DNA of 63,753 nucleotides, counting the filler, from Rhabdomonas costata (lineage: Eukaryota), in assembly GCA_019059605.1 (NCBI GenBank). It is 54 parts of 54 records of this genome, joined end to end, with 100 filler letters (N's around TTAATTAATTAA, not from the genome) between each part and the next. Parts side by side here need not be neighbours in the genome. Positions count along the whole stretch, not along the records: positions 49,672 to 50,753 come from JAHMHO010029536.1; positions 50,854 to 51,935 come from JAHMHO010029537.1; positions 52,036 to 53,116 come from JAHMHO010029538.1; positions 53,217 to 54,297 come from JAHMHO010029539.1; 50 more parts are not named here. One strand, 5' to 3'. This document shows, piece after piece, positions 50,193-53,778 of the stretch (its first letter is position 1; each line of letters opens with the position of its first letter). The notes under the pieces were generated by a model. That model was given only the letters and a program-made list of their open reading frames with translations. It made no database searches and had not been told where the DNA came from. The translations under genes and the position numbers were made by a program.

Positions 50193-50879
50193 CTGGAGAA
50201 AGCCACAGACCAAGCCCTCGCCATTCTGTTGTCGGGGTAAACTCTACGCGAGCGACGACGAACCCCAGGAGCCAGCATTCTGACTAGCAGGGGTGGTTTG
50301 AGGGAGGTTCCCCCTCTGATTCTAAGGGGTACAACCCAAAACTGCCTCTCACACACTTTACATCTGCATCAGCTGTGCGTCTGCCTGGGTACTCTGGGTG
50401 GCTGAAACCTTTGCCATAAAGTCATCACCACACTCGAGCGTGAACTGTGAGACATCCGTGCACACAAACAATTCAGGAATCGTCCAAAAGCAGAATGATA
50501 AGTCACTGTAAGACAGCCATTTAAAAAACGGCTGGGATGCGAATGCGACAGAAAGCATATCGGATGTGAGAAAGGTTGTGGATGCGTCTCGGCATCAGAA
50601 CCGCTCTTTTAGCCACACACACACACACACAGATGTCCCCAACCACCCGTCCAATCATCACCCAACGATAATGGGAATGCTCGGAGACACCCTGATTTGG
50701 CTTCGTTGCTTCATCTGTGTGCAGTCATAAAAAGTGCACGGGACACCCACACCNNNNNNNNNNNNNNNNNNNNNNNNNNNNNNNNNNNNNNNNNNNNTTA
50801 ATTAATTAANNNNNNNNNNNNNNNNNNNNNNNNNNNNNNNNNNNNNNNNNNNNTGTTGGGTGTGTCTGGGGGGTTGGGT

Positions 50880-51131
50880 GTTGAATTCAACGATGGCAAC
50901 GTTCCTGTTTTCACCGTCTGCAGCCACGGCGATAACGCCGTTGCTTGTTTCCATGGGTAATTTTCCCTCGTTTACTCGTGCTACCGCCTGTAGGTCGACT
51001 TTCGACTTCTCCCTCAGCCACTCAACAGCCTTGTCTATATCGAAGCCATTCTCACGCAGGGCGATCTTGCAATCTAGCAAACCAGCACCACTCCTTTCTT
51101 TCAGAAGTTTTATAGCTTTTATATCTGCCAT
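50880..51131 (-). CDS. tsf: Elongation factor Ts, N-terminal part (3' truncated), probably bacterial
   Basis: MADIKAIKLLKERSGAGLLDCKIALRENGFDIDKAVEWLREK...GVIAV...VAIVEFN shows the EF-Ts GAGxxDCKxAL...AxxWLR motif; no targeting peptide or intron; AT-richer codon usage than the host exons. Confidence 0.88.
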
Positions 51132-51244
51132 CTCCCTGAAATGCTTATCTTAGTAAACACGCTCTTGCTATTTACCTAACGGCGAAGCCTTAGATCTTAT
51201 ATGAGAGCAGACGGCATTCTGGCGGAGGCTCAGCCAAAAGTCTA

Positions 51245-51766
51245 CTACTTTCTGAACGCCTTCCTATCAGTAAAGAGAGTCTTACACCACCTAATGAGGC
51301 TGTGCATGGTGTCTCCCACTTCCATTACATGGCTCTTTGGCAGTTTGTGCTTACTAGAGGTGGGTGCTTTATTGTTCTCCTTTACCACAAGACCAATCAC
51401 TTTGTTCGATTGACCGAAATAAAGAACTACAACTTTAGAGGATAATATTTTGGGCTTTATGTATCCTTCTCGGACCGTGATTGTTGCTTAATACCACTTC
51501 GTATCATCCATACTCCTAAAGGTTGGAGCTCCTACGCTTTGCAGTACTTCTACCTTGCTCTTTCCCTCAAGTGCGAGTCTTACGGGTTCTTCTTTGGCGA
51601 AGATGCTAGAACCATGAGCTCCCAAGTGCAATATCTTGCTTCCCATGACCTTGGGGGTGGATAAGCACAACAAGAGCAAAAGTGGTAAGGCAAAAGTCCA
51701 AAATAAAGTTGGAATACAGCGGACCGGACCGCGGGAAATAGGTAGCACTCCATACTGATACCACAA
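51245..51766 (-). pseudogene. bamE: BamE/SmpA/OmlA-like outer-membrane assembly lipoprotein gene interrupted by an in-frame TAA at 51490-51488
   Basis: Hydrophobic leader ending in Cys, then HG...LEGKSKVEVLQSVGAPTFRSMDDTKWY*ATITVREGYIKPKILSSKVVVLYFGQSNKV...; the frame stays open 80 codons past the TAA to TAG TAG. Start position uncertain. Confidence 0.7.
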
Positions 51767-53778
51767 GGATCACGATGGTAAAACTGCGTCAATGGTATTG
51801 CATTCCCAATTCCTGTGCAAAGGAAACCTTAGAGATGTAGTTTTTCACCTAGTGTTTTACCATCTGTTGTAATACACTCACCCCCAATGCGTTGTTCGAA
51901 GCAGAAGAACGCATTGGGGGTGAGTGTATTACAACNNNNNNNNNNNNNNNNNNNNNNNNNNNNNNNNNNNNNNNNNNNNTTAATTAATTAANNNNNNNNN
52001 NNNNNNNNNNNNNNNNNNNNNNNNNNNNNNNNNNNGGGGGGGTGGTTTCTCATGTTCATGGGATGCCCGTTGACATAGGGCCAGGGCACTTACCGTCCAC
52101 CACAGCTGGGACGCAACAGCACAGAATGAAAGGATTCGCAACCCTCCAACGACTGGTCATCTTCAACACACTGCGTACATTATGCCGTCTAGCCCATATC
52201 CAAATCTATCAAATCAAACGCCAACAGCAAAGCCGTGGTTCTGCAGCAGAGCGCACAGTGAGAACTCGGAGAGGTCCACGAGTACAGCAAATGCACATAC
52301 ACACACTTTGGATAATGAGAAGTCTTCGTGCTCCGAGGAAAGCTCTAGCGCAGAGAGTGAGTGCCGGCGGTTGGCCGGTGTCACCAGCGAGGGCGCCGGC
52401 GTGACTTTCAGAGTGGGAACCTCCTTGCTCATCCTTCCGTCTTTGGGTGCGACTGGGGACGCGATTTCGAGGAAATGGGGGTTCAGATCCCAAATCCAAC
52501 AAAGAAAAGCAGTGGATATAAAAACTCTGAAACGAACACAGACCGGGGGAATGAAAATGCATTCAACAAAATGTAGACGAACCAAATGCACCTCCTGAAG
52601 GGAGGAACAATCGAAATGATGGCCCGAAGTGGATGGAATCCAACGAAGGACGGAAGTGATTATCCACACTTGCTCACCGCACCCATCCTCTTCTCACCGA
52701 CGAAAGAGGTCACACGCCAGGAGCTCCACCTGGCATCTCCTGGCAAAGTTTTGACGATCATACATCCTGCAACATCGCAGACTCTTCAAAATCTTCAACT
52801 TCGCTGGCTTTCCGTCCTGCAGTAGATTCAAATTAATTGTGGGGGCTGGCAGGATCTTTCAGCTCCCATTATGCTCCGTTTCCATTGCAATTGCATCTCG
52901 CGCGAACGAATGAACCGATGGACACCTCGCAAACTGCAGGTCAGTTGTCCACCAGTACCTTGAGATCGCTCGGATGAAAAACGACAAGGCAAAAACCTGG
53001 AAACCTGGAAAAAGAACCTCCCCCCCCCCCCCCCGCGCCCTGCAACTCCGCAGTGACCTGAAGCCAAGGAGGTATCAACGGGCAGCAAGCGAGAATCAAC
53101 GGGCAGCAAAAAGTCTNNNNNNNNNNNNNNNNNNNNNNNNNNNNNNNNNNNNNNNNNNNNTTAATTAATTAANNNNNNNNNNNNNNNNNNNNNNNNNNNN
53201 NNNNNNNNNNNNNNNNTGTTTGTGTTTTCTTTCTGATGGACGTTGTGGATAGAAATCGTGTCTGGATTCTTTTCTGTTCATGTTCACATTTTCGCAAGGT
53301 CCTTCTCGTTATTTTTGCTGTGGTGAAAGCAAAGGGAACCTTCACAAAGAGTGGTGTTTTTGTTTATCCGCCTCCGTTGAACGCCTCGAACCTTTTTATC
53401 TCACTGCTCTCAGTGCCGCTTTCGCTATTGCTATGGTTCAGGTGACCAGCATCAAGATGACATGACCGCGAGAGATGTTTCGCCCACTGCCTACCCGCCA
53501 CCGGCTGTTATTCAACGCCACTCATCCCGGAAGTTCTCTCCTGGTGTGTGTAGGTGTGGTTTTGCGTCCCTTCACATTGGGAGTGCACCATTCGGATGTT
53601 GGTACCGTTGTTCAGGTGGACCGTTTTCGTGCGTCGCCGGTATGCGTCGGGCCTGGTAATTGCAAGTTTATGTCCGTGGCCAAGCGAGCCCCGATTTTTA
53701 ATGTCTTGTTTGTCCGCGGTCTAGTGGCAAGTTTCCGAGCAGTGCGTCCGTTAAGTTCTTGTTAAAATTGCGTTTCAG

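What the first reader, a model, noticed from the sequence alone, without database searches (positions are those of the whole stretch)
50854..51935. Bacterial-looking contig (bamE-tsf): candidate reduced endosymbiont in the protist assembly
Seen: an AT-richer, gene-dense, intronless contig with two co-oriented genes 113 bp apart. Established: BamE belongs to diderm bacteria and is not a mitochondrial gene, and tsf normally follows rpsB. Here tsf follows bamE, and EF-Ts is divergent: the usual KGxxxAxKKxxR segment is replaced by KSKVDLQAVARVNEGKLPME. Inference: a fast-evolving, rearranged genome such as an alphaproteobacterial (Rickettsiales/Holosporales-type) endosymbiont, groups known from euglenozoans. 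Prey, contamination or a decaying transfer into the host genome are alternatives.
Basis: partly seen in the sequence, partly recalled or inferred. Interest (0 to 1): 0.75.

Follow-up and report, generated by a model that had tools for sequence, protein, structure and literature searches.

The report
Stray bacterial-type tsf fragment, broken bamE-like neighbour
A 1-kb contig in a very fragmented protist assembly carries the start of an unusually divergent bacterial-type translation factor gene (EF-Ts) after a weakly BamE-like gene broken by a stop codon; it looks foreign to the host, but one kilobase cannot show whether it comes from a symbiont, a contaminant or an old insertion.

Summary
The window is 54 contigs of about 1,083 bp joined by spacers. 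The finding is one of them, 50854-51935. On its minus strand, the first 84 codons of a bacterial-type EF-Ts gene (tsf) are real and run off the contig end. Their match to the family is strong in the UBA-like domain.

The last few codons ('TQPPRHTQ') are G/T-rich contig-end junk, which is common in this assembly.

The upstream 'bamE' is only weakly BamE-like (Pfam E 0.078, below cut-off; a single PDB hit at E 0.028).

rpsB is absent upstream of tsf, whereas 76 of 80 metagenome loci have it there.

Composition sets the contig apart from the host: lowest GC and highest TpA ratio of the 54 contigs, and GC3 about 0.5 against 0.72-0.81 in host exons.

No close relative was found in any collection that answered.

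Verdict: foreign bacterial-type DNA from an unsampled, fast-evolving or decaying source. The call of a reduced Rickettsiales/Holosporales endosymbiont is untested. Modest interest.

The parts
50854..50879 (.). G/T-rich contig-end junk; on the minus strand it gives the spurious 'TQPPRHTQ' tail of the EF-Ts ORF
   Evidence: 20 of 54 contigs begin with at least 13/15 G or T, against 16 of 3,185 interior 15-mers. The family consensus departs from the ORF exactly here. The boundary is approximate, within about 3 nt.
50880..51131 (-). First 84 codons of a bacterial-type tsf gene (EF-Ts): an N-terminal UBA-like domain, a divergent linker, and the first strands of the core. It is cut by the contig end.
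   Evidence: TIGR00116 E 3.5e-11 for residues 4-86. Thermus EF-Ts 1aip_C E 2e-6, aligned 1-46 to 1-46. 1,843 library hits at E<=0.001. Local family HMM 72.3 bits.
51132..51244 (-). 113-nt spacer between the two ORFs. It holds in-frame TAA stops 7 and 13 codons before the tsf ATG. GGGAG abuts the ATG, and TTTCAG lies 4 nt before it.
   Evidence: No sigma-70-like promoter was found in the contig.
51245..51766 (-). 173-codon BamE-like ORF with a TTG start (alternative ATG at 51646). It has a hydrophobic N-terminal helix and a BamE-like domain at residues 65-123. It is interrupted by one in-frame TAA and ends in TAG TAG.
   Evidence: Pfam PF04355 E 0.14 / 0.078, below cut-off, and only when read through. 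The sole PDB hit at E<=10 is 7txx_A at E 0.028, a chain that E. coli BamE matches at 7.5e-4. No word-sharing homologue was found. The AF2 model is unusable, pLDDT 42.
51488..51490 (-). In-frame TAA inside the BamE-like domain, aligned to a Tyr of the homologue
   Evidence: Translation. In the alignment 'wyXatit' against 'FYYISQT', X falls on Y.
51866..51935 (.). Perfect 28-nt inverted repeat (arms 51866-51893 and 51908-51935, 14-nt loop) that ends exactly at the contig end. It is either a real palindrome that broke the assembly graph or a fold-back artefact.
   Evidence: 1 of 54 contigs has such a fold-back; dG -34.5 kcal/mol, z -11.7. Rfam gives only sub-threshold hairpin (miRNA-model) matches.

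Best explanation
The contig is a piece of a separate bacterial genome that was co-assembled with the protist. The source is a diderm, probably proteobacterial, with no close sequenced relative.

It carries the 5' third of tsf. From established knowledge, EF-Ts is the nucleotide-exchange factor that recycles EF-Tu-GDP, and its N-terminal UBA-like domain docks on the G domain of EF-Tu.

113 nt upstream lies a small gene related to BamE, which by established knowledge is the lipoprotein accessory subunit of the outer-membrane BAM complex. This gene is inactivated by a TAA nonsense codon at a Tyr position, or the base was misread.

Shown: the two reading frames, the stop, the divergence, the missing rpsB, and the non-host composition.
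Inferred: that the DNA sits in a bacterial cell rather than in the host nucleus, and that fast evolution plus a pseudogene point to a host-associated lifestyle.

Within this reading I put a host-restricted symbiont and a free-living contaminant or prey at about equal odds.
For: - The EF-Ts N-terminus aligns from residue 1 with bacterial EF-Ts and has no presequence. It matches bacterial chains better (E 2e-6 to 1e-5) than mitochondrial ones (0.019, 0.21).
- The upstream ORF's only family or PDB matches are BamE-type.
- Composition: lowest GC (0.457) and highest TpA observed/expected ratio (0.88) of 54 contigs. GC3 is 0.51 (tsf) and 0.49 (bamE-like), against 0.72-0.81 in three Pfam-supported host exons and one more judged by eye.
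- Divergence: second-lowest score of 128 sequences against the family HMM.
- No close relative: best 41-67% identity in 1.8 billion representatives; none by word search; best 61-64% over 36-42 residues in metagenome contigs; none in viral contigs.
- rpsB is upstream of tsf in 76 of 80 loci but not here.
Against: - There are no convincing bacterial expression signals: 0 sigma-70-like sites (shuffles average 1.6) and no minus-strand terminator. GGGAG abuts the tsf ATG with no spacing, and there is no Shine-Dalgarno motif before the TTG start.
- By trinucleotide distance the contig is only 7th of 54.
- One host-contig ORF, an IS1595-like transposase fragment, has GC3 0.506, like the target, and another has 0.60. 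Low GC3 is therefore not unique to this contig.
- The BamE call is below threshold and the fold could not be checked.
- 45.7% GC is not typical of reduced symbionts.
- Only 1 of 54 contigs in the window looks like this. Coverage, mate links and the rest of the assembly were out of reach.
- The species-genome collection was never searched, so a known free-living relative is not excluded there.
Confidence: 0.6

Rival explanations
1. A decaying piece of bacterial DNA integrated in the protist's nuclear genome (an old lateral transfer that is now non-functional). Both genes drift. The bamE-like gene has already taken a stop, and EF-Ts has lost its basic helix.
For: - An in-frame TAA sits in the BamE-like domain.
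- EF-Ts is strongly divergent just after the UBA domain.
- There are no promoter or Shine-Dalgarno signals.
- GC of 0.457 is close to the host range of 0.473-0.587.
- The trinucleotide rank is only 7 of 54.
Against: - No host sequence flanks the genes. The G/T-rich end is junk common to this assembly.
- The tsf fragment has no stop or frameshift in 84 codons. Its conservation is patchy in the way of a selected protein: the UBA domain is 59-64% identical to the best loci while the linker is not.
- The TpA ratio is the highest of 54 contigs and GC3 is far from host exons.
Confidence: 0.17
2. A working nuclear gene for an organellar (mitochondrial or plastid) EF-Ts of the protist. Its targeting sequence would lie on an upstream exon spliced to the AG 4 nt before the ATG, or the mRNA would be trans-spliced there. 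The 'bamE-like' frame would then be intron or spacer.
For: - TTTCAG lies 4 nt before the ATG.
- The best-scoring library hits are long two-domain proteins that look like plastid EF-Ts polyproteins (that name is recalled, not from a call).
- The top Pfam hit is the mitochondrial-type EF-Ts_N model at E 0.0013, below its cut-off.
- Bacterial expression signals are lacking.
Against: - Those long hits rank first only because two domains add their scores. Per-domain identity is 41-49%, no higher than the single-domain hits.
- In the tree the query lies outside the clade of 25-28 such domains.
- A Met sits exactly at the bacterial N-terminus, with in-frame stops 7 and 13 codons upstream.
- GC3 is 0.51 against 0.72-0.81 in host exons.
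- No identical or near-identical protein turned up in the word searches of the protein collection. As I understand that collection (not checked here), it also holds assemblies of public sequencing runs, so an expressed host gene would likely have been found.
- The BamE-type similarity of the upstream frame would have to be chance.
Confidence: 0.08
3. The TAA and part of the oddity are errors of a low-coverage, low-quality assembly. The source would then be an ordinary bacterium with intact bamE and tsf.
For: The assembly shows systematic junk at contig ends and a fold-back at this contig's end. The TAA differs by one base from a Tyr codon, at a position aligned to Tyr.
Against: A single base error cannot explain a replaced 20-residue segment of EF-Ts, a family score of 72 against a median of 126 bits, or the lack of any close relative.
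Confidence: 0.15

Closest known systems
Bacterial elongation factor Ts (tsf; NCBIfam TIGR00116), e.g. the Thermus thermophilus chain 1aip_C and the E. coli chain 1efu_B
   Same: An N-terminal UBA-like domain with the GAG(L/M)(L/M)DCK.AL motif, starting at residue 1 as in bacteria. It is followed by the 'G.IAVA...VAIVE.N' strands that lead into the core.
   Different: The basic KG...A.KK..R helix is replaced by KSKVDLQAVARVNEG plus about 8 extra residues. The family score is the second lowest of 128. There is no rpsB upstream. The core domain with the TDFV motif, and the rest of the protein, lie beyond the contig end.
BamE / SmpA-OmlA domain (Pfam PF04355); nearest solved chain 7txx_A ('BA5')
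   Same: The G.s..eV....G.P ... W.Y ... vl.v.F....kV pattern runs over about 58 residues. A hydrophobic N-terminal segment precedes it.
   Different: It scores below Pfam's cut-off (13.2 against 23.2 bits). It has an in-frame TAA in the domain. There is no canonical lipobox: Leu, not Gly/Ala/Ser, precedes the Cys, and the lipobox rule itself is recalled, not from a call. BLASTP finds no alignment to E. coli BamE. The fold is not verified.
Alphaproteobacterial endosymbionts of euglenozoans (e.g. Ca. Cytomitobacter and Ca. Nesciobacter in Diplonema; Holosporales and Rickettsiales in other protists)
   Same: Bacterial DNA co-assembled with a protist, and fast-evolving proteins. The literature shows that such symbionts exist in this host group (only the search listing and abstracts of PMC5845003, PMC13598402 and PMC11909080 were seen).
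   Different: There is no phylogenetic link to these groups. GC is 45.7%. Only 1 kb is known, with no 16S gene and no second contig. Their genomes could not be compared here.
Long two-domain EF-Ts proteins resembling plastid EF-Ts polyproteins (name recalled, not from a call)
   Same: They are the top E-values in the library search (P0002-P0010, 474-1,133 aa, 2-3 stretches each).
   Different: They rank first because two domains add up. The query lies outside their clade and has a bacterial-type start.

Membership tests
EF-Ts (TIGR00116 / tsf) | N-terminal UBA-like domain with the GAGMMDCKKAL-type motif | tested here: met
PDB EF-Ts chains E 2e-6 to 1e-5. The motif GAGLLDCKIAL is present.
EF-Ts (TIGR00116 / tsf) | Basic helix KG...A.KK..R after the UBA domain | tested here: not met
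   The strict motif is in 74 of 127 hit segments and the loose motif in 107 of 127. It is absent from the query, which has KSKVDLQAVARVNEG. It is usual, but not universal, in the family.
EF-Ts (TIGR00116 / tsf) | Core domain with the TDFV motif and the C-terminal module | not testable with these tools
   The contig ends 84 codons into the gene, and what follows is end junk.
EF-Ts (TIGR00116 / tsf) | rpsB-tsf operon context (typical, not defining) | tested here: not met
   rpsB is found upstream in 76 of 80 metagenome loci. Of the 4 without, 2 have under 300 nt upstream and 2 (L027, L057) truly lack it. E. coli RpsB finds nothing in the contig at E<=10.
BamE (Pfam PF04355) | Score at or above Pfam's gathering cut-off | tested here: not met
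   12.4 and 13.2 bits against 23.2 (E 0.14 and 0.078), and only with the TAA read through. The two halves alone give no family. NCBIfam gives none.
BamE (Pfam PF04355) | Similarity to a solved BamE-family structure | tested here: inconclusive
   The only PDB sequence at E<=10 is 7txx_A at E 0.028. That chain is matched by E. coli BamE at 7.5e-4. There is no direct BLASTP alignment to E. coli BamE.
BamE (Pfam PF04355) | Lipoprotein signal peptide with a lipobox Cys | tested here: inconclusive
   A hydrophobic helix spans residues 18-35 in the model and ends in LLLLLC, with Leu and not Gly/Ala/Ser before the Cys (read; the lipobox rule is recalled). The start codon is uncertain: TTG at 51766 or ATG at 51646.
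BamE (Pfam PF04355) | Intact reading frame | tested here: not met
   In-frame TAA at 51490-51488.
BamE (Pfam PF04355) | Two-helix, three-strand fold (recalled) | tested here: inconclusive
   Single-sequence AF2 gave mean pLDDT 42.1, with the domain below 50. There are no homologues from which to build an alignment.
Reduced alphaproteobacterial endosymbiont (Rickettsiales / Holosporales type) | Phylogenetic placement inside those orders | not testable with these tools
   The tree has 127 rows and 88 columns. No well-supported set holds the query, there is a long-branch warning, and the rows carry no taxonomy. Cluster look-up gave no names. The species-genome scan gave no answer.
Reduced alphaproteobacterial endosymbiont (Rickettsiales / Holosporales type) | Strong AT bias and a compact genome | tested here: not met
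   GC 0.457 and GC3 about 0.5. About 73% coding at best. This is a typical feature, not a strict rule.
Reduced alphaproteobacterial endosymbiont (Rickettsiales / Holosporales type) | Accelerated protein evolution, pseudogenes, lost synteny | tested here: met
   Family score of 72.3 against a median of 126.2 bits, a TAA in the bamE-like gene, and no rpsB. These features are also expected of a decaying insertion.
Reduced alphaproteobacterial endosymbiont (Rickettsiales / Holosporales type) | Further contigs, a 16S gene, distinct coverage | not testable with these tools
Within the window, 1 of 54 contigs is of this kind, and there are no tRNA or Rfam genes.

The most novel reading that the evidence does not exclude
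The contig comes from an unsampled, host-restricted bacterium of the protist in which TAA is read as a sense codon (Tyr). The only in-frame TAA falls on a Tyr-aligned position of the BamE-like domain, while that gene ends in TAG TAG rather than TAA. To my recollection, no bacterium is known to reassign TAA.
Probability: 0.03. Interest if true: 0.9.

Novelty: new member of a known kind. Interest (0 to 1): 0.3.

Why it matters
If the source is a real associate of the protist, this kilobase would be the first trace of a bacterial lineage with no close relative among billions of public proteins. It would then be a reason to bin the assembly and look for a symbiont.

As it stands, it mainly shows two things. 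This assembly contains non-host DNA, and its contig ends carry junk that can pass for sequence divergence. Both matter for anyone annotating it or claiming gene transfers from it.

Tried and rejected
- Whole-genome search of the window's assembly: none is held. A W handle cannot serve as a centre.
So there was no coverage, no RNA evidence and no test of splicing.
It is negative in the protein libraries, in metagenome contigs and in viral contigs.
- Word-based homologue search for the BamE-like ORF: 69 candidates, none scored.
- AF2 fold of the BamE-like ORF without an alignment: pLDDT 42, unusable, so no fold search was made.
- ESM Atlas: it turned the read-through protein away, and I dropped that step.
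- Cluster look-up of 10 hits for names: 1 of 10 clusters carried a name ('elongation factor Ts'), and none gave taxonomy.
- Literature look-up of 7TXX / BA5: nothing relevant. The organism of that chain is unknown to me.
- Rfam on the contig: only sub-threshold miRNA-hairpin models on the inverted repeat. Rejected as a generic hairpin effect.
- Reading 'EFN|TQPPRHTQ' as a truncation or an intron junction: rejected in favour of contig-end junk.
- Affinity to plastid-type EF-Ts polyproteins: rejected.
- Second copy of the hairpin arm elsewhere in the window: none.
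Full report
WHAT THE WINDOW IS

The 63,753 bases are 54 separate contigs of 1,068-1,084 bp, joined by N...TTAATTAATTAA...N spacers. It is a slice of a very fragmented assembly sorted by length.

The other contigs look eukaryotic:
- They have few long frames and many CA/TC microsatellites.
- One contig ends in a CCCTAA-type repeat.
- Short Pfam-supported exon-like pieces are present: EF-hand at E 8.8e-8, protein kinase at 7.2e-5 covering only model positions 43-80, and ornithine/arginine decarboxylase at 1.3e-9.
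- No tRNA and no Rfam family reaches threshold anywhere in the window.
- No whole genome is held for the window.

THE OBSERVATION

The finding is exactly one contig, 50854-51935 (1,082 bp). On the minus strand it has two frames:
- An ATG at 51131 opens a frame that runs off the contig end (P0001).
- A frame from 51766 to 51245 lies upstream. The spacer between them is 113 nt, as stated.
- TTTCAG does lie 4 nt before the ATG.

Two things were missed.

First, the upstream frame holds an in-frame TAA at 51490-51488. Table 11 gives two ORFs, of 92 and 51-80 codons, not one gene.

Second, nearly all contigs of this assembly begin with G/T-rich junk and end with C/A-rich junk. 20 of 54 start with at least 13/15 G or T, and 8 of 54 end with at least 13/15 C or A. 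Among interior 15-mers the figures are 16 and 15 of 3,185. The first 26 or so bases of this contig are of that kind. The EF-Ts tail 'TQPPRHTQ' is therefore an artefact, and the gene is simply cut by the contig end after ...VAIVEFN.

The other end of the contig is a perfect 28-nt inverted repeat that stops exactly at the last base. Only 1 of 54 contigs has such a fold-back. A real palindrome at least as long as the assembler's word, or a chimeric fold-back read, would both give this. I cannot tell which.

EF-Ts

The N-terminal 84 residues are EF-Ts:
- TIGR00116 matches at E 3.5e-11 over residues 4-86.
- Thermus, Mycobacterium-type and E. coli chains in the PDB match at E 2e-6 to 1e-5. Thermus aligns 1-46 to 1-46, so the Met is the native bacterial start.
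- Mitochondrial EF-Ts chains score worse, at 0.019 and 0.21.
- phmmer against 1.84 billion representatives gave 1,843 hits at E<=0.001, 12 at <=1e-10 and none at <=1e-30. Identities were 30-67% in the 150 listed.

- Among 127 N-terminal segments cut from the hits, KG...A.KK..R is present in 74 and a looser form in 107. The query has neither.
- Against an HMM built from those 127 segments, the query scores 72.3 bits. The range is 61.8-140.2, the 5th percentile 90.6 and the median 126.2. The query is second lowest, and the lowest is a visibly broken copy. The members trained the model, so their scores are somewhat flattered.
- The alignment shows a conserved UBA domain, a replaced helix with about 8 extra residues, and then a well-aligned 'GVIAVAADGENRNVAIVEFN'.

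THE UPSTREAM FRAME

The two halves alone match no Pfam or NCBIfam family at E<=1. Read through with X at the stop, the results are:
- The only Pfam match is BamE, at E 0.14 for 173 aa or 0.078 for 134 aa. The score is 12.4-13.2 bits against a cut-off of 23.2. It covers model positions 12-67 of 71 and spans the stop.
- Against all PDB sequences, the only hit at E<=10 is 7txx_A ('BA5') at E 0.028. Again it spans the stop, with X aligned to Tyr.
- E. coli BamE itself finds 7txx_A at 7.5e-4, so that chain belongs to the BamE family.
- Direct BLASTP to E. coli BamE finds nothing.
- Word search found no homologue: 69 candidates, none scored.
- A single-sequence AF2 model is unusable, with pLDDT 42.1. 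Only an N-terminal hydrophobic helix at residues 18-35 is modelled with some confidence.

I rate 'BamE-type domain' at roughly 75%. It is not a family member by Pfam's threshold, and it is not an intact gene.

CONTEXT

In 80 metagenome loci that encode EF-Ts relatives, E. coli RpsB finds rpsB directly upstream of tsf in 76. Of the other four, two have fewer than 300 nt upstream, and two (L027, L057) really have other genes there. The target has 804 nt upstream of tsf and no RpsB match at E<=10. The broken synteny is therefore real and uncommon, though not unique.

HOST OR FOREIGN?

For a foreign origin:
- GC is 0.457, the lowest of 54 (next lowest 0.473).
- The TpA observed/expected ratio is 0.88, the highest of 54 (the others 0.27-0.86).
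- GC3 is 0.51 (tsf) and 0.49 (both halves of the upstream frame). The EF-hand, kinase and decarboxylase exons have 0.78, 0.81 and 0.72, and an acyl-CoA-dehydrogenase-like exon has 0.79. That last one is judged by eye only, since Pfam gave it no hit.

Against a foreign origin:
- The trinucleotide distance from the window mean ranks only 7th of 54.
- An IS1595-like transposase fragment on a host contig has GC3 0.506, and another ORF has 0.60.
- The contig shows no sigma-70-like promoter (0 found; shuffles average 1.6) and no minus-strand terminator.
- There is no well-spaced Shine-Dalgarno motif: GGGAG abuts the tsf ATG.

RELATIVES

No close relative turned up:
- Word searches of 5.8 billion clusters found none for EF-Ts, in 'longer' and 'near' lengths, and none for the upstream frame.
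The best identity was 61-64% over 36-42 residues, or 40-45% over 80 residues.
- Viral contigs gave none.

The top library E-values belong to long proteins with two or three EF-Ts N-domains. A quick maximum-likelihood tree places the query outside the clade of 25-28 such domains. The tree has 126 segments plus the query and 88 columns. The careful search did not finish, and one broken row was dropped. The query sits next to P0072 (SH-aLRT 93), within a group that also holds P0014, P0055 and P0119 (83). The program gives an explicit long-branch warning, and no well-supported set holds the query. P0055, P0119 and P0072 are Lys/Asn/Ile-rich full-length EF-Ts proteins. That fits 'fast-evolving, AT-rich lineages attract each other' as well as it fits kinship. 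None of these rows carries taxonomy.

READING

The simplest account is DNA of a separate, diderm-type bacterium with no sequenced close relative. Its tsf is unusually divergent. Its bamE-like neighbour carries a nonsense codon, or a base error. Confidence is about 0.6. That is split roughly evenly between a host-restricted symbiont and a free-living contaminant or prey.

A decaying insertion in the host nucleus fits the stop, the divergence and the missing expression signals (about 0.17). But nothing links the contig to host DNA, and the pattern of conservation in EF-Ts looks selected.

A working nuclear gene for an organellar EF-Ts (about 0.08) is disfavoured by four things: the bacterial-type start, the in-frame stops 7 and 13 codons upstream, codon composition, and the lack of any identical protein in the word searches.

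Assembly error may account for the TAA, but not for the protein-level divergence.

The specific claim of a reduced Rickettsiales/Holosporales-type endosymbiont is neither supported nor refuted. Such symbionts are documented in euglenozoans (I saw only the listing and abstracts of PMC5845003, PMC13598402 and PMC11909080). Placement, further contigs, coverage and RNA could not be examined, and 45.7% GC does not suggest strong reduction.

NOVELTY AND SCORE

This is a new, divergent member of known gene families on a 1-kb fragment of unknown provenance. It is a reasonable lead for binning the assembly, and a caution about contig-end junk. Interest is 0.3.

The boldest reading that is still open is a bacterium that reads TAA as Tyr. 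It rests on one codon, and I give it about 3%.

Supplementary files of papers were not consulted.

Noticed in passing
all 54 contigs of the window, first and last 10-30 bases: There is systematic junk at contig ends: G/T-rich starts (20 of 54 at 13/15 or more) and C/A-rich ends (8 of 54), against about 0.5% of interior 15-mers. It looks like read-tail artefact carried into the assembly. It can mimic divergence or truncation of any ORF that reaches a contig end.
   Followed up: yes
window 51866-51935: A perfect 28-nt inverted repeat with a 14-nt loop ends exactly at the contig end. It is the only such fold-back among the 54 contigs. It is either a real palindrome or a chimeric-read artefact.
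   Followed up: partly
window 38387-38890 (-) and 23074-23613 (-): There are IS1595/ISXO2-like transposase fragments on host-type contigs. The first has Pfam PF12762 at E 5.8e-7 and GC3 of 0.506, unlike host exons. The second looks similar by eye but had no Pfam hit in the frame I sent.
   Followed up: partly
window 21150-21195: A CCCTAA-type telomere-like repeat lies at the end of contig 20113-21195.
   Followed up: no
L057 1-1950 and L027 1-680: Two of the 80 metagenome loci have tsf without rpsB upstream. In L057, an FtsH-like C-terminus and a 268-aa unnamed ORF precede tsf. The rpsB-tsf pair is therefore broken now and then in ordinary bacteria.
   Followed up: partly
P0002 (597 aa): This library protein has three EF-Ts N-domains. 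The first is visibly broken after the UBA motif. It was the only family segment that scored below the query.
   Followed up: no
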